DNA of 64,000 nucleotides from Escherichia phage vB_ESM-pEJ01, in the sequence record OP114734.1; one strand, written 5' to 3'. Every line of letters starts with the position of its first letter. Position 1 is the stretch's first letter. Below the pieces are notes generated by a model. It did no database searches and had not been told where the DNA came from. It saw only the letters and a list, made by a program, of their open reading frames with translations. The translations under genes and the position numbers were made by a program. Positions 1 through 58,635 of this stretch are shown one piece after another.

Positions 1-200
1 GTATCATCTTTAGAGAATCCGAAGACCTTAGACGGAATATCTTCAATTGCTACTCCCGCGACTTCTGCATTACGCGCTTGGCAATAATGCAACTCTAAGT
101 TATCGAGATAGCGACCGCCTAATTTCTCCATATCATCCCAGCATTTCCAGTAACCTACTTTATTTGCAATCGCTAACACCTTGCTGTTTTCGTTGTTCAT
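1..200 (-). CDS. hypothetical protein, 5' part only (continues past window start)
   Basis: ATG at 200..198 with AAGGAG 9 nt upstream; frame open to position 1 (MNNENSKVLAIANKVGYWKC...). Confidence 0.45.
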   Translation of the reverse strand, partial: MNNENSKVLAIANKVGYWKCWDDMEKLGGRYLDNLELHYCQARNAEVAGVAIEDIPSKVFGFSKDD

Positions 201-266
201 CTTTGATTCTCCTTTTGTTTGGTATGGGAGTATGTTACTACTCCCTTGTTCTGGTGTCAATAGACT

Positions 267-36535: not shown

Positions 36536-37337
36536 TCAAAAATTCAACTTCACGACGTTTAATGTCTTCTTGAAGGTCTTTAATCTTCTGGCGATCTTGC
36601 ATGATTTCATCCATCTTGTCAAGTGCCGCAATGAAATCATCGAAACGTTCAAAGGTTTTACCTTCATTTGCTTCGCCAAATTTAACCATTGTCAGGCCGT
36701 AACGACTACTAAACAGACGTTTCAACTGTCCAACGATTTTAGAATCAGTGGTTATAACTTCCAATTCTTCTACTTCACGAAAGAATTTTCTATCAGAATC
36801 AATAAACCAGCTAGTTCCTTTATGGTCTCTATCTTCGGTTGCGCTCATTAGAGTATGGTCTTTACCATCAATTTCAATTACATCAATTTGCCCACATGGA
36901 CTAACATTTTTAACAGTAAAAGGTCTATAATTTATTGCTCGTGCAATAACATAATTAAGGTTAGATACGTTTTCAGCATAATGGCAGAAGTCGGTCATAG
37001 CATTCGCATCTTTCCAAGTATAAGTTTTACCAACTTCCCATTTCTGGGGAACTTCTTCAACTTCACGAAAGAATTTTCTATCGAATGGACTAAAGAAATA
37101 TGTTGCCGTCCAAATGTCTTTTCCTGTAGCAGTTTTCGCCGTATGATAAACACCGTCTAGCTCTATTGCATAAATCCAACCGTTACCATCGATCTCGATG
37201 ATGGTAAATGGCTTGTCACCAATAGCTGCACTAATATCGCTGTTAAGTGGAGAAAGAACACCTTCTCCGTTAGTAATAAACTCAGTTTTAGCGTTTTCGT
37301 CTTTCCAGGTGTAAGTTTTACCAATTTCCCATTTCAT
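36513..37337 (-). CDS. paralogous-family protein, array 1 member C (internal domain duplication)
   Basis: Contains KWE(I/V)GKTYTWKD...DRKFFREVEE twice. Confidence 0.5.
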   Translation of the reverse strand: MKWEIGKTYTWKDENAKTEFITNGEGVLSPLNSDISAAIGDKPFTIIEIDGNGWIYAIELDGVYHTAKTATGKDIWTATYFFSPFDRKFFREVEEVPQKWEVGKTYTWKDANAMTDFCHYAENVSNLNYVIARAINYRPFTVKNVSPCGQIDVIEIDGKDHTLMSATEDRDHKGTSWFIDSDRKFFREVEELEVITTDSKIVGQLKRLFSSRYGLTMVKFGEANEGKTFERFDDFIAALDKMDEIMQDRQKIKDLQEDIKRREVEFLIGKERGW

Positions 37338-37349
37338 AATATATTCCCC

Positions 37350-37832
37350 TTAACCGATTTTATCAAGTTCGTTTAATGCTTTCTCTGCTTCCTGTATAGC
37401 TTGCACCCTTTCCGGCATTTTGTCAAGAAAATCTTTCAACTCTTCAAAACTGGAGATATGACGCAAGGCGTTAGCACCGATAGCCGCATGTGATTTGCAT
37501 TCAAAGCGGATTTTATAATTATCCATCGCCAACTTGAGAAGATCAATTAATTTAGATTCTTCTGGAATAATAATAATTTCTTCAAATCTGCTACGGTCAT
37601 GATCCAGAAACCAACAAGATAGACCTACATCGGTTGAACTCATATAAGTTCCATCATGAAGATAAACAGATCGCACGTATCCTTTTTTCGCATCAACCGA
37701 CGCAACTTTAAACGGTAATCGCAGATATTTCAAATAATCAACATCATACCATTTAAAAAATTGGTTTGCATCTTTTACATCTTTCCACGCATAGGTCTTA
37801 CCAACTTCCCATTTCATAATATCATCTCTCAT
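37350..37832 (-). CDS. paralogous-family protein, array 1 member B
   Basis: MKWEVGKTYAWKD N-terminus; start probably at 37817. Confidence 0.5.
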   Translation of the reverse strand: MRDDIMKWEVGKTYAWKDVKDANQFFKWYDVDYLKYLRLPFKVASVDAKKGYVRSVYLHDGTYMSSTDVGLSCWFLDHDRSRFEEIIIIPEESKLIDLLKLAMDNYKIRFECKSHAAIGANALRHISSFEELKDFLDKMPERVQAIQEAEKALNELDKIG

Positions 37833-38358
37833 TTTTGATACGTGATTCTAATTGGATCATACGGTCGCGCGTTTGTTTGTATTCTCGGATAGCACCGATC
37901 CGGCTAGGCATACCATCCAGTACGCTCTTAATACCTTCTAGGGTAGTAATTTTGGCAATGCTATTATGTAACCCCATCTTATCGATCAACTGAATGTCGT
38001 AGGCTTCCATAAGCAGACCCAGACGTTCTAAAGTTAGGTCTTCTTCTTTTTCTTTCGATTCTGGAATCTTAGGTTCAATAGTAACTTCGGTAAAGAAACG
38101 ACGCTCACCAGCCCAAAACCACACACCATAACAATTGATAGAAGATTCTTTTAACGTCATCGGCTCGGTATCTTCACCGATAATGGTAATTTCACTAACA
38201 TCACCATCAGCATCAAGTGCTTCTACCTTAAACGAACGACCGTTCAACAGGTCAATAATCATACTGTTAATGGATGACGAAAATTTAGTCAGTTCAGCTT
38301 TTGATATTTCACACTTAATGTTGTAGATCTTACCTACTTCCCATTCCATAATAATCAC
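37822..38358 (-). CDS. paralogous-family protein, array 1 member A
   Basis: MEWEVGKIY..., ERRFFTEV motif, coiled-coil tail. Confidence 0.5.
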   Translation of the reverse strand: MIIMEWEVGKIYNIKCEISKAELTKFSSSINSMIIDLLNGRSFKVEALDADGDVSEITIIGEDTEPMTLKESSINCYGVWFWAGERRFFTEVTIEPKIPESKEKEEDLTLERLGLLMEAYDIQLIDKMGLHNSIAKITTLEGIKSVLDGMPSRIGAIREYKQTRDRMIQLESRIKNER

Positions 38359-40202: not shown

Positions 40203-40230
40203 ATTATACATTAGCTAATCATGTTGTCAA
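40203..40230 (-). promoter_or_regulatory. early-type promoter (-35 TTGACA, 16 nt, -10 TATAAT)
   Basis: Immediately after nrdD terminator. Confidence 0.5.
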
Positions 40231-40240
40231 CACCCCAAAA

Positions 40241-40268
40241 CGAAAAAGCCGACCCTTTCGGATCGGCT
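40241..40268 (-). terminator. rho-independent terminator after nrdD
   Basis: AGCCGATCC-gaaagg-GTCGGCT hairpin followed by TTTTTCG. Confidence 0.6.
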
Positions 40269-42733: not shown

Positions 42734-43908
42734 GCACTAACTTTTTTCTTTACTGCTTTCACCTTCTGGCGAATTGCTCGAATCTCTTCGATCTCTTTTT
42801 CAGTCTCTTTAACAATTTCTTTGCGATTCTGAATATCTGTATCTAGATTATCATCAAGTTTAGGCAGCATGTCAATCAAGAACTTTTTAAAGTCTTTCAG
42901 GTTTCGGATAACAGCACCTTCACCCATTACCGCCACGCCTACACCATCCGGCAGATCACCAAACAGCTTAACCAGTTCAGACAGATGATCATGATCTTCT
43001 AGTGCTTCTTCCGGTTCAGATGGCAGTTCAACAAAGTTATAACGTTCATCATTGCTGATCAAGTGATACCAGCAAAGCCCGAAAGATTTCGGTGTATATT
43101 CTACACCATCAATTTCAACCGCGTCAACACTTCCATAATCATCTACTTTAGTTACCTTAAATCCTTGTCCCAGCTTTTGAACAATTTCAACAACATGACT
43201 TGATACAGTTTCAGCGGTAAACCAATATGGCAAATTATGCTGATTTGGTTTGTAGCGTTCACCTACTTTAAATCTCTGACCATCCGCTTGCATAGAATGA
43301 AATTGTTGTTTCGTGATTTCCGCGAAGTATTCAAATTCGCTACCGTCAAACAAGCAATTCCATTGATCACAAAAACGATCTGCCTTAACAGTTTCACCTT
43401 TCGCGGTGATCATGGTAGCTGATCCGTGCAATTCTTCTTCAACTAAAAAGCCATATTCGACAAAATCAACAAGTTTCATAGCTTCTTTGTGATCTGGATC
43501 ATGCTCTCCCCAGAATCGCTTAAATTCTTGCAAACCTTCTGGGGTAAACGAATAACATTTACCTTTTTCAAAGTAAGTCGGCATTGCATCCTCTTTCTTG
43601 TTCATCGCTTCGTATGCCTCTTTTGAGATACGTTTAAAGAATTTACGCTCATCGTGCATAATCATAGTAGCCCAATAATAAACGATATCCTCAGCGGAAT
43701 AAACTACATCTCCAGCTTCAATAGTAATAACATGACCGTGGTCATCTTTTTCTAATACTTTAAAGCCCTTTTCTACGATTTCAGCAACCCGAATATGACC
43801 ACGGCGCGAAGCATCGGTCAGAATAATTGAATAGCGAGAAAAGTCTAGAAACTCATCTTTACCGCCTTCACGGAATGCATAGTAATGACCTTCAAAGAAT
43901 TTAGCCAT
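42730..43908 (-). CDS. paralogous-family protein, array 2 member G (three module copies)
   Basis: GFKVLEKDDHGHVITIEAGD.., GFKVTKVDDYGSVDAVEIDG.., ERKFFKRIS. Confidence 0.5.
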   Translation of the reverse strand: MAKFFEGHYYAFREGGKDEFLDFSRYSIILTDASRRGHIRVAEIVEKGFKVLEKDDHGHVITIEAGDVVYSAEDIVYYWATMIMHDERKFFKRISKEAYEAMNKKEDAMPTYFEKGKCYSFTPEGLQEFKRFWGEHDPDHKEAMKLVDFVEYGFLVEEELHGSATMITAKGETVKADRFCDQWNCLFDGSEFEYFAEITKQQFHSMQADGQRFKVGERYKPNQHNLPYWFTAETVSSHVVEIVQKLGQGFKVTKVDDYGSVDAVEIDGVEYTPKSFGLCWYHLISNDERYNFVELPSEPEEALEDHDHLSELVKLFGDLPDGVGVAVMGEGAVIRNLKDFKKFLIDMLPKLDDNLDTDIQNRKEIVKETEKEIEEIRAIRQKVKAVKKKVSA

Positions 43909-43939
43909 AATATAATCCTCTCGTTGTTTAGACGGGAGT

Positions 43940-43968
43940 ATCTTACTACTCCCGTTTCATCATGTCAA
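43940..43968 (-). promoter_or_regulatory. promoter cassette with GGGAGTA/TACTCCC hairpin over -10
   Basis: TTGACA 43968..43963, 17 nt, TAAGAT 43945..43940. Confidence 0.55.
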
Positions 43969-44549: not shown

Positions 44550-44818
44550 TTCACTAATTGAACAGCACGGAACAGAATGCGCTCACACGGAAGCAGCATA
44601 AATTCCCAACGCGGATCAAAGTCTTTAGCGGTGTATGTTTTCCCATCAACCGAGATTTCACTTACATAACCAACAGGTGACACTTTAAGAACAGTAAACC
44701 CATTCTTGATGACTTCGTAGGTATCTTTCACCCCTTCGTATTCATCATCTAAGAAGTCTTTATGTGCTTGCTCAGATTTAAAAACATAGGCAACACCGGA
44801 TTTAAACATCTTACGCAT
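44546..44818 (-). CDS. paralogous-family protein, array 2 member E (single module)
   Basis: GFTVLKVSPVGYVSEISVDGKTY; track start 44878 lies in promoter, ATG MRKMF has AAGGAG. Confidence 0.5.
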   Translation of the reverse strand: MRKMFKSGVAYVFKSEQAHKDFLDDEYEGVKDTYEVIKNGFTVLKVSPVGYVSEISVDGKTYTAKDFDPRWEFMLLPCERILFRAVQLVK

Positions 44819-44849
44819 TGTTGATTCTCCTTCTTGATTAGATGGGAGT

Positions 44850-44878
44850 ATTTTACTACTCCCATTTCTTATTGTCAA
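44850..44878 (-). promoter_or_regulatory. promoter cassette with GGGAGTA/TACTCCC hairpin
   Basis: TTGACA 44878..44873, 17 nt, TAAAAT 44855..44850. Confidence 0.55.
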
Positions 44879-49158: not shown

Positions 49159-49437
49159 TTACATGTCTTGCAGTGCATAAAAGCATTTTTCTTCATAGTC
49201 ATAGAAAATGTCAAAGTATGCTTTTTCCACATACTCGCCATTAATCCAAGCGGCAGTAACAATCAGAGTGGTCCAGGTAGATCCGCTCTCAACGGTAAAG
49301 GTTTTAATACCCAGCTTCGCTGCCAAGTCGAACGCAAACCGGACGCAACCACGACAGGAAGTGATGTTGGAAGTTTTGATTTTAAAGCCACCGCGAGTTT
49401 TAGAAATTTCTACTTTAGCGAAAGACAGGTTGCTCAT
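49159..49437 (-). CDS. hypothetical protein (92 aa)
   Basis: AAGGAG RBS; downstream of promoter 49480..49508. Confidence 0.45.
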   Translation of the reverse strand: MSNLSFAKVEISKTRGGFKIKTSNITSCRGCVRFAFDLAAKLGIKTFTVESGSTWTTLIVTAAWINGEYVEKAYFDIFYDYEEKCFYALQDM

Positions 49438-49479
49438 TTTGATTCTCCTTAAGAAAGTGTGTTTCGTTTTGATGTGTGT

Positions 49480-49508
49480 AGTATAGGGGATACGTGATCC
49501 CCTGTCAA
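49480..49508 (-). promoter_or_regulatory. promoter cassette; spacer is a perfect GGGGATCACGTATCCCC hairpin
   Basis: TTGACA 49508..49503, 17 nt, TATACT 49485..49480. Confidence 0.55.
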
Positions 49509-49516
49509 CAATTTTT

Positions 49517-49846
49517 TTATGATTTTAGTGAATTAACCACTACATCAAAATGATGTACAGAGCACACCTTACGAAACACATATTCATCATGTTTCGGAAT
49601 CGCCCCCAACCGCTTTATTTCGCTCGCTGACACGATAAACCGTTTATCAGGTGCATTTACCTTATATGCTTCAACAACGCACGGAAAACGCGTTTTAGAG
49701 AGTTCGGGATAGTTTTCTGACTCCATCAGGACAATGAATACCCTATTACATTGATTGTAGAATCCGGTTTTTGATTTCATCAAGTTTTCTTCTCTGTGAA
49801 ATTCGTGCAATCTTCCTTTCATGATTTCGTTGGTTCCTGTCTTCAT
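49517..49846 (-). CDS. hypothetical protein (start uncertain)
   Basis: ORF overlapping 49746..50087 at its 5' end. Confidence 0.35.
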   Translation of the reverse strand: MKTGTNEIMKGRLHEFHREENLMKSKTGFYNQCNRVFIVLMESENYPELSKTRFPCVVEAYKVNAPDKRFIVSASEIKRLGAIPKHDEYVFRKVCSVHHFDVVVNSLKS

Positions 49847-51557: not shown

Positions 51558-51585
51558 ATTATAGCATTGTGATTATCTTTGTCAA
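51558..51585 (-). promoter_or_regulatory. early-type promoter (-35 TTGACA, 16 nt, -10 TATAAT)
   Basis: Follows terminator 51590..51624. Confidence 0.5.
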
Positions 51586-51589
51586 CACC

Positions 51590-51624
51590 CAAAAACAAAA
51601 AAGGCTACCCCGAAGGATAGCCCA
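51590..51624 (-). terminator. rho-independent terminator after glycine-rich gene
   Basis: GGGCTATCC-ttcg-GGGTAGCC hairpin followed by TTTTTTGTTTTT. Confidence 0.6.
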
Positions 51625-52771: not shown

Positions 52772-53056
52772 TTAAACTAATCGAATATAGCCCAGAATTT
52801 CAGCACCTTTAGCCAAACCTAAAACTTCCCATTCAAGGTCGCCGTATTCGTAATTTGCAACCATCAACTGACCATTTTTCATGCAGCATTCATGAGAGAA
52901 AATTTGCCCCGCATAAACCACGATAGTAATAAACTTTCCTGATTCTGGAGGTATGGAAGACAAAGCGACCATATGACCATTCAGCTTAGTCACCAGTGAT
53001 GGAACAATAAAATTCGGGCTTACCTGAATACCTTTAAATTCGTTTGTGTCTTTCAT
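52772..53056 (-). CDS. hypothetical protein (94 aa)
   Basis: ORF. Confidence 0.4.
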   Translation of the reverse strand: MKDTNEFKGIQVSPNFIVPSLVTKLNGHMVALSSIPPESGKFITIVVYAGQIFSHECCMKNGQLMVANYEYGDLEWEVLGLAKGAEILGYIRLV

Positions 53057-53403
53057 GCCAGACCTCGCAAAACACTAATAGCATAATCATGCTGGTTATT
53101 CATAATATCAATTGCATTGTGATAACGAGCTAAACCATCAAGGATAAATTCTTGTTTATCCTGTTTCAGTTTGGTATCACGCGCAGCCATAAGAGCATCA
53201 AGAACAGGTCCAAAGTGATTATCTAATTCATCTTCGGTTGCAATGTTTCCTATTGCCTCGTCGATCCGTGATTCTAATGCTTGCTTTTCGTTGATCACTT
53301 GCTGGGTATATTCCAACACATCAAGAATATCGCGGGTAACGTCGCCATGATAAGGTATTCCCGCATGAAGATGATCAATTAATCGCTGAATATCAATGTT
53401 CAT
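53053..53403 (-). CDS. hypothetical protein (116 aa)
   Basis: ORF. Confidence 0.4.
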   Translation of the reverse strand: MNIDIQRLIDHLHAGIPYHGDVTRDILDVLEYTQQVINEKQALESRIDEAIGNIATEDELDNHFGPVLDALMAARDTKLKQDKQEFILDGLARYHNAIDIMNNQHDYAISVLRGLA

Positions 53404-53738
53404 TTGTAACCCTCCTCTGAAAGCACATCCCAGATCGTTGAGTCAAGGTGCATTAAATTCCACATAATAGAGTCATAACTACCGAAGCCAGAAGTAAAAA
53501 TTACATCACACTGGCGATAGGTCTTATGAAAATCGGTGGCTGTCTCTGCATCAATCGGCATATCGTCACCTGAAAGCACCAGACATTTAAGAATCATAAC
53601 TCTGTTAGCCGTTGGCGCTTGCTTAGTCTTTTCAGCATATTTTTCGATGATCTGTTTTGCCTTTTCTTCTTTGATACGTCCAGACCAAATCCGGTTTCGG
53701 TATTGATTCATAATAATTTCAATCACATCATTTTGCAT
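53400..53738 (-). CDS. hypothetical protein (112 aa)
   Basis: ORF. Confidence 0.4.
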   Translation of the reverse strand: MQNDVIEIIMNQYRNRIWSGRIKEEKAKQIIEKYAEKTKQAPTANRVMILKCLVLSGDDMPIDAETATDFHKTYRQCDVIFTSGFGSYDSIMWNLMHLDSTIWDVLSEEGYK

Positions 53739-53937
53739 TCTTCACGGTCTCCATAATTGTTTTGTAAGCCAGCTTAAGATGATCACCGAAAAACTTTGCA
53801 GTGTTACCCTTCGGATCGCGGAGCATGGTTTCTACGATCTCATCGGCAGTAACAATTTCTCCTTTCTTTGCTGCATGTTCTACCATATACTTCAAAGTTT
53901 CTTCGGAGGCAAGTGCTGCGGCCACTGGATTAATCAT
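53728..53937 (-). CDS. hypothetical protein (69 aa)
   Basis: AAGGAG RBS; first gene after promoter 53967..53995. Confidence 0.4.
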   Translation of the reverse strand: MINPVAAALASEETLKYMVEHAAKKGEIVTADEIVETMLRDPKGNTAKFFGDHLKLAYKTIMETVKNAK

Positions 53938-53966
53938 TTTGATTCTCCTTTGTTGTCGATGTGTGC

Positions 53967-53995
53967 ATTATGCTATACCCTATTCCGGTTGTCAA
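53967..53995 (-). promoter_or_regulatory. early-type promoter (-35 TTGACA, 17 nt, -10 CATAAT)
   Basis: Conserved leader CACACATCGACAACAAAGGAG follows. Confidence 0.5.
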
Positions 53996-54000
53996 CACCT

Positions 54001-54031
54001 AAAAACGAAAAAGCCACCCTTTCGGATGGCT
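54001..54031 (-). terminator. rho-independent terminator
   Basis: GCCATCC-gaaa-GGGTGGC hairpin followed by TTTTTCGTTTTT. Confidence 0.6.
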
Positions 54032-54264
54032 TTTGATTATATTTTATTCACGTCCATTTGTATAGTAGTGTTTGAATCGACCTTTGCTAAACTAGTTAAA
54101 CATAGTAACCAATTCACCATCCCTTTCCAATGATAACCCTTCCTCGTCTTAGACGGGTCTTCCGATTCGGCAGTAATTGAACACGCGAAAGTATGAGGAA
54201 GCCAAATAGTTGTGTTAATGCTAGTATTCTTTTACTTCTGGTATGCATCCCACGGTGACTAACA

Positions 54265-54663
54265 TTAAGACAGTCGAGTGAGTTTATAAATTGTTTTAAA
54301 ACATAGAGCTTTGATATCGTCTAAAACGCTCTGTAACGAGCTATCAACATCATTATAAATCTCACTAGCCATTTGCGTTAACTCTTGCAAATAGGCAATT
54401 TCGCTAATCTCCTTGCGGACGACCAACGTTGGCTGATAACGACCAGTGATCCCAATATTGGTTTCAGTGAAATCATCAACCAATTCTTGCATTTCAAGAT
54501 AGAACTCTTCTAGAGCCTTATGTTTTGCATAAGATCCAGGACCAGTTACCCCAAAATGCGCAGAATGCATATAAGTAACACTCATCAGACATTCACCGAT
54601 AAAGCGGTCAACTTTATTATCTTTTCCCTCTTCGGACGTCTTTCGAAAATCACTGAATTTCAT
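54265..54663 (-). CDS. hypothetical protein, possibly ferritin/Dps-like four-helix bundle
   Basis: Start at MKFSDF (GGAG RBS); segment HSAHFGVTGPGSYAKHKALEEFYLEMQELVDDF loosely resembles Dps HW..G..F...H..LEE motif. Confidence 0.3.
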   Translation of the reverse strand: MKFSDFRKTSEEGKDNKVDRFIGECLMSVTYMHSAHFGVTGPGSYAKHKALEEFYLEMQELVDDFTETNIGITGRYQPTLVVRKEISEIAYLQELTQMASEIYNDVDSSLQSVLDDIKALCFKTIYKLTRLS

Positions 54664-54952
54664 GTTCTCGATTCTCCATATTATGCAACATAACAAACTG
54701 TTGTGCGGCATATTCCCCCATAATAAAACACTGCTTAGAATCCATACATTTACTACGAGCATACATCTTCATAATATGGGCATGAAATTTCTGGCTGGTT
54801 TCAATGGAAGGAGATATTTTGTTTACATATACTATCATTGCACCGTCGAAATAATCAGTAAAGTCACCAGTTGGATCATATTGATCAGCACTGACACTTC
54901 CGACCGCAGTCAAGCATATTGCCGCTGTTAGAGTTTTACGAATAAATGACAT
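54650..54952 (-). CDS. secreted/periplasmic hypothetical protein
   Basis: N-terminal signal peptide MSFIRKTLTAAICLTAVGSVSA. Confidence 0.45.
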   Translation of the reverse strand: MSFIRKTLTAAICLTAVGSVSADQYDPTGDFTDYFDGAMIVYVNKISPSIETSQKFHAHIMKMYARSKCMDSKQCFIMGEYAAQQFVMLHNMENREHEIQ

Positions 54953-55020
54953 AAGTCATTCCCCCAGATTAAAAATATTCAGTTATATTTATAATCTGGG
55001 GCTTTATTTATGATTAACTC

Positions 55021-55617
55021 TTATTTGGTAGTACCGTCAATAAAATGTTTACGGCACACAGAGACATATTTATCCTCTGCACCAACTTCTATTTGAGCAC
55101 CATCGCGAATAACATTACCCTCTTTATCTACACGAAGGACCATTGTTGCTTTCTTGCCACAATGACAAATACCCTTCATTTCGACCAGTTTATCAGCAAA
55201 TGCCATTAATGCCGCAGATCCTTCAAATAGATTGCCCTGAAAGTCGGTGCGAAGGCCATAGCACAGTACAGGGATATTTGCATCATCGACAAGCGCACAC
55301 AAGCCTAAAACATGCTCTTTAGTCATAAATTGGGCTTCATCTACAAATACAGCATCAGGACGCCATCGATCCGGTCTACGCTTACCTAACGATTCACGAT
55401 AAACCAAATCGAAAAGATCATCCGATTCAGTGAAGGTGATCGCTGGAGCACTTAGGCCAATTCGGGAAACAACTTCACTTTCTGAATCTCGATTATCAAT
55501 CGCTGGCTTAAGAATTAATACTCGCATATCACGTTCGGTATAGTTATAAGCACTTTGTAACAGAGAAGTTGATTTGCCAGCGTTCATAGATGCATAGTAG
55601 AAATATAGTTGCGCCAT
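55021..55617 (-). CDS. tk: thymidine kinase
   Basis: Walker A ASMNAGKST, DEAQF, C-terminal zinc ribbon CHCG...CRKH. Confidence 0.85.
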   Translation of the reverse strand: MAQLYFYYASMNAGKSTSLLQSAYNYTERDMRVLILKPAIDNRDSESEVVSRIGLSAPAITFTESDDLFDLVYRESLGKRRPDRWRPDAVFVDEAQFMTKEHVLGLCALVDDANIPVLCYGLRTDFQGNLFEGSAALMAFADKLVEMKGICHCGKKATMVLRVDKEGNVIRDGAQIEVGAEDKYVSVCRKHFIDGTTK

Positions 55618-58242: not shown

Positions 58243-58578
58243 TTATCCTTTCTTAAACAAATTGCGAAGCCAGTATACAAACGGGATTTCTTTAAACTTG
58301 AATTTCTCTATAGTTAATTCTTTAGTAGCAAGATGAATACCATAAGCATCATGTGTCACGATATGCCATTTTCTATAGTCCAAATGTGAACAACCGTCTG
58401 GATCTAGGTTAATAAGAGTTTCTCGCTCACTAGGATTATTTTTCCACAATTTTGTAATAGGATCGCACATAATTCGACCTAGCGTACCATGAATAATCTC
58501 ACAACGGTAAAGTTTTCCAGCAGTGAGATAGGCGCACCCGTCATAGTCGGTATAAACAAACACTTCTTTAACACTCAT
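58243..58578 (-). CDS. paralogous small protein (DGC.HL family, two repeats)
   Basis: YDGCAYL and DGCSHLDYRKW; start at MSVKEV after promoter 58607..58635. Confidence 0.45.
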   Translation of the reverse strand: MSVKEVFVYTDYDGCAYLTAGKLYRCEIIHGTLGRIMCDPITKLWKNNPSERETLINLDPDGCSHLDYRKWHIVTHDAYGIHLATKELTIEKFKFKEIPFVYWLRNLFKKG

Positions 58579-58606
58579 TTTAATACTCCTTTGTTTCGAT
58601 GGGGGT

Positions 58607-58635
58607 ATATTACTACCCCCGTTTTGTTGTGTCAA
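58607..58635 (-). promoter_or_regulatory. promoter cassette with GGGGGTA/TACCCCC hairpin over -10
   Basis: TTGACA 58635..58630, 17 nt, TAATAT 58612..58607. Confidence 0.55.

What the first reader, a model, noticed from the sequence alone, without database searches (positions are those of the whole stretch)
53938..54264. ORF-poor 330-nt stretch upstream of a terminator
Between the stop of ORF 54265..54663 and terminator 54001..54031 there is no convincing protein-coding frame (best is a 47-codon ORF with no RBS). The segment could be a long 3' UTR, a small RNA or a remnant of a deleted gene. I found no tRNA-like T-arm or D-arm.
Basis: seen in the sequence. Interest (0 to 1): 0.3.

Follow-up and report, generated by a model that had tools for sequence, protein, structure and literature searches.

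The report
Fossil of a deleted Hoc-like gene
The gene-free stretch is the decayed leftover of a 2.1-kb gene for a probable capsid-decoration protein that a few sister phages still carry intact, followed by an ordinary terminator-plus-promoter cassette; it is a pseudogene scar, not a new RNA gene.

Summary
The window is a Krischvirus (RB49-like, T4-type) coliphage. All local genes are on the minus strand.

The gap 53938-54264 is real and unusually long for this genome. It has two parts.

(1) 54044-54264 is a collinear mosaic of three pieces of a 714-aa gene. That gene is intact at exactly this position, directly after rI.-1, in 6 of 58 Krischvirus records and in a more distant metagenomic relative.
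- Codons 1 to about 48 survive, with the start ATG changed to ATA, a damaged ribosome-binding site and a +1 frameshift.
- A 35-nt internal piece survives.
- The last 12 codons plus the stop survive.
- Both deletion junctions lie in 8-9-nt direct repeats.

(2) 53938-54043 holds the gene's old terminator plus a sigma70 early promoter and Shine-Dalgarno for the next gene. This matches a published "PeSL" cassette.

No tRNA or Rfam family was found, and folding is no better than in shuffled sequence. The 44-aa ORF loses its ATG in 5 of 14 relatives. The scar evolves about three times faster than codon positions 1+2.

The lost gene encodes about six predicted Ig-like domains and a C-terminus resembling the Hoc capsid-binding domain. 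It is a second gene, separate from canonical hoc. Verdict: ordinary unannotated pseudogene, low interest.

The parts
54265..54663 (-). rI.-1 (DUF5856), the upstream gene. Its stop TAA is at 54265-54267. It gives the context and marks the 5' boundary of the scar.
   Evidence: Pfam DUF5856 E=6.9e-21; phrog_858 E=1.3e-43; annotated rI.-1 in RB49.
54245..54264 (-). Former rI.-1/Hoc-like spacer with a decayed ribosome-binding site. Intact alleles read GGGGGA or GGAGGA; the window reads GTGGG, with a 2-nt deletion. This is the most variable segment of the region (pi = 0.10).
   Evidence: Alignment with 5 intact alleles; diversity.
54101..54244 (-). 5' remnant of the Hoc-like gene, codons 1 to about 48. 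The start ATG is mutated to ATA (54242-54244). An extra A at about 54227 shifts the frame, and TAG follows in the old frame at 54221-54223. With that A removed the translation is IPEVKDTSINTTIWLPHTFACSITAESEDPSKTRKGYHW, against MPEVKDTSINTTIWLPHTFACSIAAESDDPTKPKKGYVW in G2248.
   Evidence: blastn 84% over 179 nt, E=6.5e-52; tblastn residues 5-40, 80.6% identity, E=1.5e-13; coordinates and translations checked.
54114..54248 (-). It starts at an ATG created by an A-to-G change 2 nt upstream of the dead start codon and reads the remnant out of frame.
   Evidence: The ATG is ATA in GEC-3S, ECD7, Sf20, PTE-Eco09 and G2494. Phi1 also reads ATA at this position.
54101..54109 (-). Deletion junction 1, at the microhomology GTTACTATG. 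It joins about codon 48 to about codon 620, removing about 1.7 kb.
   Evidence: Intact alleles carry (G/A)TTAC(C/T)ATG-like sequence near codon 46-48 and GTTACTGTG at G2248 gene-oriented positions 1916-1924.
54075..54109 (-). Internal fragment of the gene, codons about 620-631 (VTMFN*FSKGR here, VTVFNEFSKGR in G2248). In the window it carries a nonsense change.
   Evidence: 30/35 identity to G2248 1916-1950, collinear with the other pieces. Four relatives keep G instead of the T that makes TAG.
54075..54082 (-). Deletion junction 2, at the 8-nt direct repeat GGTCGATT. It removes 214 nt (G2248 positions 1951-2164).
   Evidence: GGTCGATT occurs at G2248 1943-1950 and again at 2165-2172. The two blastn segments overlap by exactly these 8 nt.
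54044..54082 (-). 3' remnant: the last 12 codons (GRFKHYYTNGRE) plus the stop TAA (54044-54046) of the Hoc-like gene.
   Evidence: Identical to the G2248 gene end within a 99% match of 146 nt.
54009..54034 (-). Intrinsic terminator (11-bp stem, GAAA loop, T-run). It was originally the terminator of the Hoc-like gene and now ends the rI/rI.-1 transcripts. It is the stem-loop part of a PeSL cassette.
   Evidence: It is the most conserved segment (pi = 0.003). It sits in the same place after the intact gene in G2248. It is annotated as a terminator in several records.
53967..53995 (-). Sigma70-type early promoter of the next gene (TTGACA-17-CATAAT). It is the promoter part of the PeSL.
   Evidence: 11/12 match. 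Annotated as a promoter in GEC-3S. The cassette recurs at 40215-40257 and 51570-51612. PeSL architecture as described in PMC2839356.
53935..53951 (-). Shine-Dalgarno (AAGGAG) and start codon of the 69-aa downstream gene (53728-53937, phrog_16283).
54986..54993 (-). TATAAATA late-promoter consensus upstream of rI, the only copy in the 64-kb window. It is the inferred driver of late transcription through rI, rI.-1 and, ancestrally, the Hoc-like gene.
   Evidence: 1 match found, 5.9 expected by chance, so the match itself is not statistically notable. Function is inferred from the T4 late-promoter consensus (established knowledge).

Best explanation
The interval is a pseudogene scar plus a normal regulatory cassette.

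An ancestor of this phage carried a gene of about 2.15 kb immediately downstream of rI.-1. It encoded a 712-715-aa protein with about six predicted Ig-like domains and a C-terminal region resembling the Hoc capsid-binding domain. This gene is additional to the canonical hoc gene near gene 24.

The gene was first inactivated by point lesions: the start ATG became ATA, the ribosome-binding site lost 2 nt, and a +1 frameshift arose in codon 6. The dead gene was then eroded by deletions between short direct repeats: about 1.7 kb at GTTACTATG and 214 nt at GGTCGATT. That left 201 nt of the original coding sequence (54044-54244).

The gene's own terminator survived because it still ends the rI/rI.-1 transcripts. 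It also forms, with the adjacent sigma70 promoter and Shine-Dalgarno, the PeSL cassette that expresses the next gene.

Shown here: homology, collinearity, the lesions, the junction repeats, synteny and relaxed constraint. Inferred: the order of events, late co-transcription with rI, and capsid decoration as the function of the lost protein.
For: - Intact gene at this locus: G2248, JK32, Brandy, UPWr_E1, SSG23 and SFHK24 carry it between rI.-1 and the same terminator. A 58%-identical homologue in metagenomic contigs also follows rI.-1 directly.
- Three collinear matches between the window and G2248: 5' end 84% over 179 nt (E=6.5e-52), internal fragment 30/35, and 3' end plus terminator plus promoter 99% over 146 nt. 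tblastn of residues 5-40 gives 80.6% identity, E=1.5e-13.
- Disabling lesions absent from all 5 intact alleles but shared by the window, GEC-3S and Phi1: ATG to ATA, the RBS deletion and the +1 A.
- Junction microhomologies of 8-9 nt.
- Phi1 has a different deletion architecture. Its 'ORFan 84.1' is 41/42 identical to residues 673-714 of the intact protein.
- Distribution: 50 of 58 records share the window-type scar.
- Constraint: nucleotide diversity of the scar is pi = 0.032, against 0.011 at codon positions 1+2, 0.048 at position 3 and 0.003 in the terminator. Makalu_001 carries extra 1-nt indels.
- No RNA signal.
- Nature of the lost gene: phrog_1149 'Hoc-like head decoration' at E=4.3e-11, 4.4e-6 and 6.5e-6 for three alleles, always on the C-terminal end of the profile. 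T4 Hoc chain 5vf3_Z matches at E=7e-4 over the C-terminal domain. The AlphaFold model is a string of beta-sandwich domains that match multi-Ig proteins.
- Canonical hoc is elsewhere in the genome.
Against: - The 5' remnant is only 84% identical to the closest intact allele, so the exact parental allele has not been sampled.
- The internal 35-nt match is short; its weight comes from collinearity.
- No intermediate with only one of the deletions was found, so the order of deletions is not resolved.
- The Hoc-like assignment of the ancestral protein is moderate, not strong. hhalign against the Krischvirus Hoc gives E=0.038 and probability 1.4%. The C-terminal domain of the model has low pLDDT, about 45-60.
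- Near-neutral divergence cannot exclude a weakly selected role for the transcript.
Confidence: 0.93

Rival explanations
1. The stretch encodes a functional small RNA or a structured regulatory 3' UTR, possibly exapted from the dead gene. It would be made by transcription from rI/rI.-1 ending at the terminator.
For: The stretch lies between a stop codon and a strong terminator, so it is certainly transcribed as a 3' tail. The MFE fold contains a 7-bp CUUCCUC/GAGGAAG helix that the intact G2248 coding sequence lacks. The same deletion architecture is kept in 50 records.
Against: - No Rfam family at gathering score, only chance-level hits otherwise, and no tRNA.
- Fold z-score is -1.25 on the minus strand and -0.36 on the plus strand.
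- Diversity is about 3 times that of constrained codon positions, and the scar carries indels.
- Phi1 lacks the 3' half of the putative helix.
- Six phages have a full-length gene here instead.
- Shared architecture in 50 records is expected from common descent among genomes that are about 98% identical.
Confidence: 0.04
2. The 44-aa ORF (54114-54248, minus strand) is a real small protein gene. Some genome records annotate it that way.
For: It is an open frame with an ATG in the window and in 8 of 13 compared relatives. It is annotated as a hypothetical protein in FL15 and a few other records.
Against: - There is no Shine-Dalgarno.
- The ATG was created by a single change next to the dead start codon and is ATA in 5 of 14 genomes.
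- The frame is the frameshifted reading of the Hoc-like N-terminus.
- Makalu_001 fuses frames differently.
Confidence: 0.01
3. The window shows the ancestral empty site, and the 2.1-kb gene was inserted in a minority of phages, for example by PeSL-mediated cassette shuffling.
For: The locus lies in a hyperplastic region rich in PeSLs, where insertion and excision of cassettes has been proposed (PMC2839356). Intact-gene phages are the minority, 6 of 58 records.
Against: - The 'empty' site holds about 48 codons of the gene's N-terminus, an internal fragment and the last 12 codons, all collinear. It also holds a mutated start codon and a frameshift. An insertion cannot create these.
- The junctions lie inside the coding sequence at short repeats, not at PeSLs.
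- A 58%-identical homologue occupies the same position in a more distant relative.
Confidence: 0.02

Closest known systems
Phage pseudogenes and deletion scars in T4-type hyperplastic regions (for example the deletions between short repeats catalogued in T4 by Mosig et al. 1998, as cited in PMC2839356)
   Same: A non-essential gene in a hyperplastic region was lost by deletions between short direct repeats, leaving flanking regulatory signals intact.
   Different: Here inactivating point lesions appear to precede the deletions. The junctions lie inside the coding sequence (GTTACTATG, GGTCGATT) and do not involve the GGGC/GCCC or PeSL motifs.
PeSL (promoter-early stem-loop) cassettes of RB49/phi1 (Arbiol et al. 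2010, PMC2839356; Comeau et al. 2014, PMC4122927)
   Same: 53938-54043 has the published layout: an upstream stop codon in AT-rich sequence, a stem-loop, a sigma70 consensus promoter, a Shine-Dalgarno and a start codon. Similar copies occur elsewhere in the window.
   Different: The gene loss did not occur by PeSL-PeSL recombination. Phi1 'ORFan 84.1', listed in that paper as a phi1-unique gene, is in fact the C-terminal fragment of the same dead gene.
Hoc (highly immunogenic outer capsid protein) of T4-type phages (T4 Hoc, PDB 5vf3; RB49 Hoc, PDB 3shs)
   Same: The ancestral gene encodes tandem Ig-like domains followed by a C-terminal segment. That segment matches the Hoc capsid-binding domain and the Hoc PHROG, including a W-V-x-D-E-hydrophobic core motif.
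   Different: - It is about twice as long: 714 aa with about six beta-sandwich domains, against 376-404 aa with three Ig domains.
- It is encoded after rI.-1 rather than next to gene 24.
- It co-exists with a canonical hoc.
- Similarity to Hoc is weak (E = 7e-4 to 0.04 in pairwise tests), and capsid binding is untested.
- In this window only 201 nt of it remain.

Membership tests
Pseudogene remnant of the Krischvirus 714-aa Hoc-like gene | Sequence homology to the intact gene, collinear and in the same orientation | tested here: met
   Three collinear blastn segments and a tblastn hit at E=1.5e-13.
Pseudogene remnant of the Krischvirus 714-aa Hoc-like gene | Same genomic position as the intact gene (synteny) | tested here: met
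   The intact gene lies between rI.-1 and the same terminator/PeSL in 6 phages and in a 58%-identical metagenomic relative.
Pseudogene remnant of the Krischvirus 714-aa Hoc-like gene | Disabling lesions: lost start codon, frameshift, premature stops, large deletions | tested here: met
   ATG to ATA, a 2-nt RBS deletion, a +1 A, TAG codons, and deletions of about 1.7 kb and 214 nt.
Pseudogene remnant of the Krischvirus 714-aa Hoc-like gene | Relaxed selective constraint compared with the flanking genes | tested here: met
   pi = 0.032 against 0.011 at codon positions 1+2 and 0.048 at position 3, in 14 genomes, with extra indels in Makalu_001. The sample is small and the sequences are closely related.
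Known RNA families (Rfam 15) and tRNA/tmRNA | Covariance-model score at or above the gathering threshold, or an ARAGORN call | tested here: not met
   No matches at gathering score. The best permissive hits have E >= 0.08 and involve only the terminator or the neighbouring CDS. ARAGORN reports 0 genes.
Structured non-coding RNA (generic) | Folding energy better than shuffled controls, and compensatory changes | tested here: not met
   z = -1.25 on the minus strand and -0.36 on the plus strand. The relatives are too similar for a covariation test, and no compensatory pair appears among the variable sites.
PeSL regulatory cassette (for 53938-54043) | Sigma70 consensus promoter with an adjacent stem-loop, an upstream stop codon in AT-rich sequence, and a downstream Shine-Dalgarno and start codon | tested here: met
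   Definition taken from PMC2839356.
PeSL regulatory cassette (for 53938-54043) | Repeated at other intergenic sites of the same genome | tested here: met
   Repeat family D4: 40215-40257, 51570-51612 and 53980-54022, at 70-81% identity.
PeSL regulatory cassette (for 53938-54043) | Demonstrated promoter and terminator activity | not testable with these tools
   Only consensus matches are available here. Activity was shown for other PeSLs in PMC2839356.
Hoc family (for the ancestral, intact gene in relatives) | Tandem Ig-like domains | tested here: met
   The AlphaFold model has beta-sandwich domains over residues 1-605, with pLDDT mostly 70-95 in the N-terminal half. Foldseek top hits are multi-Ig ectodomains at E about 1e-18. 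Pfam Ig_3 is sub-threshold in JK32.
Hoc family (for the ancestral, intact gene in relatives) | C-terminal Hoc capsid-binding domain | tested here: inconclusive
   For: phrog_1149 matches on the C-terminal end of the profile at E=4.3e-11, 4.4e-6 and 6.5e-6, and T4 Hoc 5vf3_Z at E=7e-4. Against: the five-allele profile gives only E=0.015, BLASTP against the Krischvirus Hoc gives E=0.025, hhalign gives probability 1.4%, and the model has low confidence in this domain.
Hoc family (for the ancestral, intact gene in relatives) | Binds the centre of gp23 hexamers on the mature capsid | not testable with these tools
   Needs virion mass spectrometry or cryo-EM of G2248, JK32 or Brandy.

The most novel reading that the evidence does not exclude
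The scar may be more than junk. Because it is fixed with identical junctions in about 50 sequenced Krischviruses and sits between a stop codon and a strong terminator, the roughly 220-nt tail of the rI/rI.-1 mRNA could have been exapted. It might act as a 3'-UTR-derived regulatory RNA or as an mRNA-stability element, for example tuning expression of the lysis-inhibition gene. The CUUCCUC/GAGGAAG helix is present in the scar but absent from the intact coding allele.
Probability: 0.04. Interest if true: 0.45.

Novelty: new member of a known kind. Interest (0 to 1): 0.15.

Why it matters
For the window itself this matters little. It explains an annotation gap and shows that the short ORFs some records call there are spurious.

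Three modest by-products follow:
- It corrects the literature status of phi1 'ORFan 84.1', which is a gene fragment and not a unique gene.
- It gives a clear example of phage pseudogene decay in stages: inactivating point lesions first, then erosion by microhomology-mediated deletions, with the flanking regulatory cassette preserved.
- It draws attention to an undescribed accessory gene in a minority of Krischviruses. This gene encodes a long protein with multiple Ig-like domains and a Hoc-like C-terminus, co-exists with canonical Hoc, and is polymorphic for presence. That could be relevant to work on capsid display or mucus adherence, if the protein is confirmed on virions.

Tried and rejected
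- Rfam at gathering score on the whole window, and at E <= 10 on 53700-54500: nothing credible.
- ARAGORN: no tRNA or tmRNA.
- Single-sequence folding of both strands: z = -1.25 and -0.36.
- Covariation analysis: not attempted, because all scar-bearing relatives are 96-100% identical. Inspection of the variable sites shows no compensatory pairs.
- The 44-aa ORF and a 27-aa ORF as real genes: rejected, because the start is not conserved and there is no RBS.
- More distant T4-type phages found through rI.-1 (57% identity, genomes of 174-180 kb; L010-L017): no homologue of the 714-aa gene within 4 kb of rI.-1, so they say nothing about the scar.
- Pfam on the intact protein: no family above threshold.
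- Profile search of the PDB with five alleles, and hhalign against the Krischvirus Hoc: only weak C-terminal similarity.
- Foldseek of the full model: dominated by generic multi-Ig hits, and Hoc is not among the top 50.
- Crude ORF tiling to rank intergenic gaps: it flagged a 483-nt 'gap' at 49263-49745 that is an artefact, since real ORFs lie at 49159-49437 and 49517-49846.
- Literature: no paper in the library links Krischvirus and a second hoc-like gene.

Full report
**Identity of the window and layout of the locus**

The 1-kb region around the finding matches 58 records of the genus Krischvirus (RB49-like Straboviridae) at 90-99% identity. All local genes lie on the minus strand. In transcription order they are:
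- tk, 55021-55617
- rI, 54650-54952
- rI.-1, 54265-54663 (Pfam DUF5856, E=6.9e-21)
- the gap, 53938-54264
- a 69-aa gene, 53728-53937 (phrog_16283)

RB49, TB34, G37-3, GEC-3S and most of the other records I opened or saw listed annotate nothing in the gap except a terminator and, in GEC-3S, a promoter.

**Checking the observation**

The gap is real.
- The best minus-strand ORF is 44 aa (54114-54248) and has no Shine-Dalgarno.
- The plus-strand ORFs of 85 and 110 aa are antisense to the neighbouring gene.
- ARAGORN finds no tRNA in the whole window.
- Rfam gives no hit at gathering score. In a permissive scan of 53700-54500 the hits are at chance level (best E=0.084) and fall on the terminator hairpin or the rI.-1 coding sequence.
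- The terminator is at 54009-54034 (11-bp stem, GAAA loop, T-run). It is followed on the minus strand by TTGACA-17-CATAAT at 53995-53967 (11 of 12 consensus positions), then AAGGAG, then the start codon of the next gene.

So only about 230 nt lie upstream of the terminator. The remaining 70 nt are promoter and 5' UTR.

In a crude ORF tiling the median intergenic gap in this window is 7.5 nt, so a 327-nt gap is unusual for this genome. One larger 'gap' from that tiling, 49263-49745, proved to be an artefact.

**What the gap is**

A sensitive blastn of the gap showed that a minority of Krischviruses match only part of it and annotate a 'hypothetical protein' there. In G2248, JK32 and Brandy a gene of 2139-2148 nt (712-715 aa) sits between rI.-1 and the same terminator. 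UPWr_E1, SSG23 and SFHK24 have it too.

I aligned the window in gene orientation against G2248. This gave three collinear segments:

| Window segment | Matches in G2248 | Identity | Content |
|---|---|---|---|
| 54300-54124 | 1-178 | 84%, E=6.5e-52 | end of rI.-1, the 22-nt spacer, the first 40 codons of the large gene |
| 54109-54075 | 1916-1950 | 30/35 | codons about 620-631 |
| 54082-53938 | 2165-2310 | 99% | last 12 codons, stop, terminator, promoter, Shine-Dalgarno |

At the protein level, residues 5-40 of the G2248 protein match window 54231-54124 at 80.6% identity, E=1.5e-13.

Removing a single extra A at about 54227 restores the reading IPEVKDTSINTTIWLPHTFACSITAESEDPSKTRKGYHW. The G2248 protein reads MPEVKDTSINTTIWLPHTFACSIAAESDDPTKPKKGYVW.

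**Lesions and junctions**

All five intact alleles compared have a strong RBS (GGGGGA or GGAGGA) and an ATG. The window, GEC-3S and Phi1 instead have:
- a 2-nt deletion in the RBS
- ATA in place of the start codon (54242-54244)
- the same +1 insertion in codon 6, which produces TAG at 54221-54223 in the old frame

That ATG is absent in 5 of the 14 genomes compared.

Deletion junction 1 lies in GTTACTATG (54101-54109). Intact alleles have a similar 9-mer near codons 46-48 and GTTACTGTG at codon 620. Junction 2 lies in GGTCGATT (54075-54082), an 8-nt direct repeat present twice in G2248, at 1943-1950 and 2165-2172. The two alignment segments overlap by exactly these 8 nt.

Phi1 has a different architecture. 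It retains G2248 1-147 and 1997-2310, joined at GAAGACCC. Neither the window state nor the Phi1 state can be derived from the other by deletion alone. Both could descend from an intermediate carrying only junction 1; no such intermediate is in the database.

Because all scar types share the three point lesions, inactivation most likely came before the deletions. This ordering is an inference.

**Distribution and direction of change**

tblastn of the intact protein against 50,697 phage records hits only the 58 Krischvirus records, one place in each:
- 6 records have the full-length gene
- 2 records, both Phi1, have the Phi1-type scar
- 50 records have the N-terminal remnant only, as in the window

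The protein family is narrow. Among 5.8 billion proteins it forms 15 clusters, all 706-718 aa and 58-100% identical. The most divergent member (58% identity) lies directly after rI.-1 in the order vs-tk-rI-rI.-1-gene on metagenomic contigs. The position therefore appears ancestral.

An insertion scenario cannot explain the N-terminal, internal and C-terminal coding remnants in the 'empty' site, nor the mutated start codon and the frameshift.

**Selective constraint**

I aligned 14 scar-bearing genomes over 52772-55617.

| Segment | Nucleotide diversity (pi) | Segregating sites |
|---|---|---|
| Scar, 54044-54264 | 0.032 | 12.7% |
| Codon positions 1+2 of the seven flanking genes | 0.011 | 4.7% |
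| Codon position 3 of those genes | 0.048 | 17.5% |
| Terminator region | 0.003 | not tabulated here |

Makalu_001 carries two further 1-nt insertions within the scar. The scar therefore evolves close to neutrally, while the terminator is strongly conserved.

RNA folding of the minus strand gives z = -1.25, with 25 of 200 shuffles folding as well or better. The plus strand gives z = -0.36. The 7-bp CUUCCUC/GAGGAAG helix in the MFE structure is missing from Phi1 and from the intact coding allele. The relatives are too similar for a covariation test.

**What was lost**

- The intact protein matches PHROG 1149 ('Hoc-like head decoration') on the C-terminal end of the profile, in three alleles: E=4.3e-11, 4.4e-6 and 6.5e-6.
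- It matches T4 Hoc (PDB 5vf3_Z) over Hoc's C-terminal domain at E=7e-4, with a shared W-V-x-D-E-hydrophobic core.
- Weaker tests: the five-allele profile against the PDB gives E=0.015, BLASTP against the Krischvirus Hoc gives E=0.025, and hhalign gives probability 1.4%.
- An AlphaFold model built from 15 sequences (mean pLDDT 75.6) shows beta-sandwich domains over residues 1-605, a disordered Pro/Glu-rich linker, and a small low-confidence alpha/beta C-terminal domain.
- Foldseek's top PDB matches are multi-Ig ectodomains, at E about 1e-18.

Canonical hoc (404 aa) is encoded elsewhere, beside the capsid vertex gene. It matches PDB 3shs at E=4.5e-192 and T4 Hoc at E=1e-15. The lost gene is therefore a second, longer gene with a Hoc-like C-terminus.

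The only TATAAATA in the window lies just upstream of rI, at 54986-54993 on the minus strand. This fits late co-transcription of rI, rI.-1 and the ancestral gene, but that is an inference. One match is not statistically notable, since 5.9 are expected by chance.

I rate 'capsid decoration protein' as likely but unproven, at about 0.7.

**The regulatory third of the interval**

The segment 53938-54043 has, in order, a stop codon in AT-rich sequence, a stem-loop, a sigma70 consensus promoter, a Shine-Dalgarno and a start codon. This is the architecture of the PeSL cassettes described for RB49 and phi1 (PMC2839356). Similar copies occur at 40215-40257 and 51570-51612.

That paper lists phi1 'ORFan 84.1' among the phi1-unique genes of the hyperplastic regions. 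Here it proves to be 41/42 identical to residues 673-714 of the intact protein. It is a fragment of the same dead gene.

**Verdict**

The feature is an unannotated pseudogene scar plus a known type of regulatory cassette. It is a new member of a known kind and of low general interest. Its by-products are a correction to an ORFan annotation and a pointer to an undescribed accessory Hoc-like gene in a few Krischviruses.

Noticed in passing
L004:1285-1413 (phage Phi1, ORF084.1): The 42-aa 'ORFan 84.1', listed in PMC2839356 as one of seven phi1-unique genes, is 41/42 identical to the C-terminus (residues 673-714) of the intact 714-aa Hoc-like protein of G2248. It is a pseudogene fragment, not a unique gene.
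   Followed up: yes
L006:3086-5230, L007:4083-6221, L026:346-2493 (G2248, JK32, Brandy): An uncharacterised accessory gene of 712-715 aa, with about six predicted Ig-like domains and a Hoc-like C-terminus, is present in only 6 of 58 Krischvirus records alongside canonical hoc. Its alleles are only 73-80% identical, while the genome backbones are about 98% identical, which suggests rapid diversification or exchange.
   Followed up: partly
window 54986-54993 (minus strand): This is the only exact T4-type late-promoter consensus (TATAAATA) in the whole 64-kb window, where 5.9 matches are expected by chance. It lies between tk and rI.
   Followed up: no
window 198-260, 43906-43968, 44816-44878, 58573-58635: A second family of PeSL-like cassettes, with a GGGAGTA...TACTCCC stem-loop placed between the -35 (TTGACA on the minus strand) and the -10, directly upstream of gene starts.
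   Followed up: no
window 36983-38354: Four copies of a 69-nt motif (65-75% identical) spaced 291-532 nt apart and ending in ...CCCATTTCAT. They look like the conserved 5' ends of a tandem array of small paralogous minus-strand genes.
   Followed up: no
L025:1656-1790 (FL15); L022:1500-1607 (PTE-Eco09); L022:1807-2253: Some deposited genomes annotate CDSs inside the scar: the 44-aa frameshifted ORF and a 35-aa plus-strand ORF over the promoter/terminator. PTE-Eco09 also annotates an N-terminally extended rI.-1 that overlaps rI. These are probably gene-caller artefacts.
   Followed up: partly
L019 (Ec_Makalu_001), equivalent of window 54224 and 54250: Two extra 1-nt insertions in the scar fuse frames into a 76-aa ORF. 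This shows how decaying remnants can throw up new ORFs by chance.
   Followed up: partly
L030:5246-7040 (metagenomic relative, ERZ27235521): In the 58%-identical relative, the genes downstream of the intact Hoc-like gene differ from Krischvirus. They include a cytosine DNA methylase (PF00145) and a Dmd-family antitoxin homologue (PF17587), so the region downstream of the PeSL is itself a swap zone.
   Followed up: no
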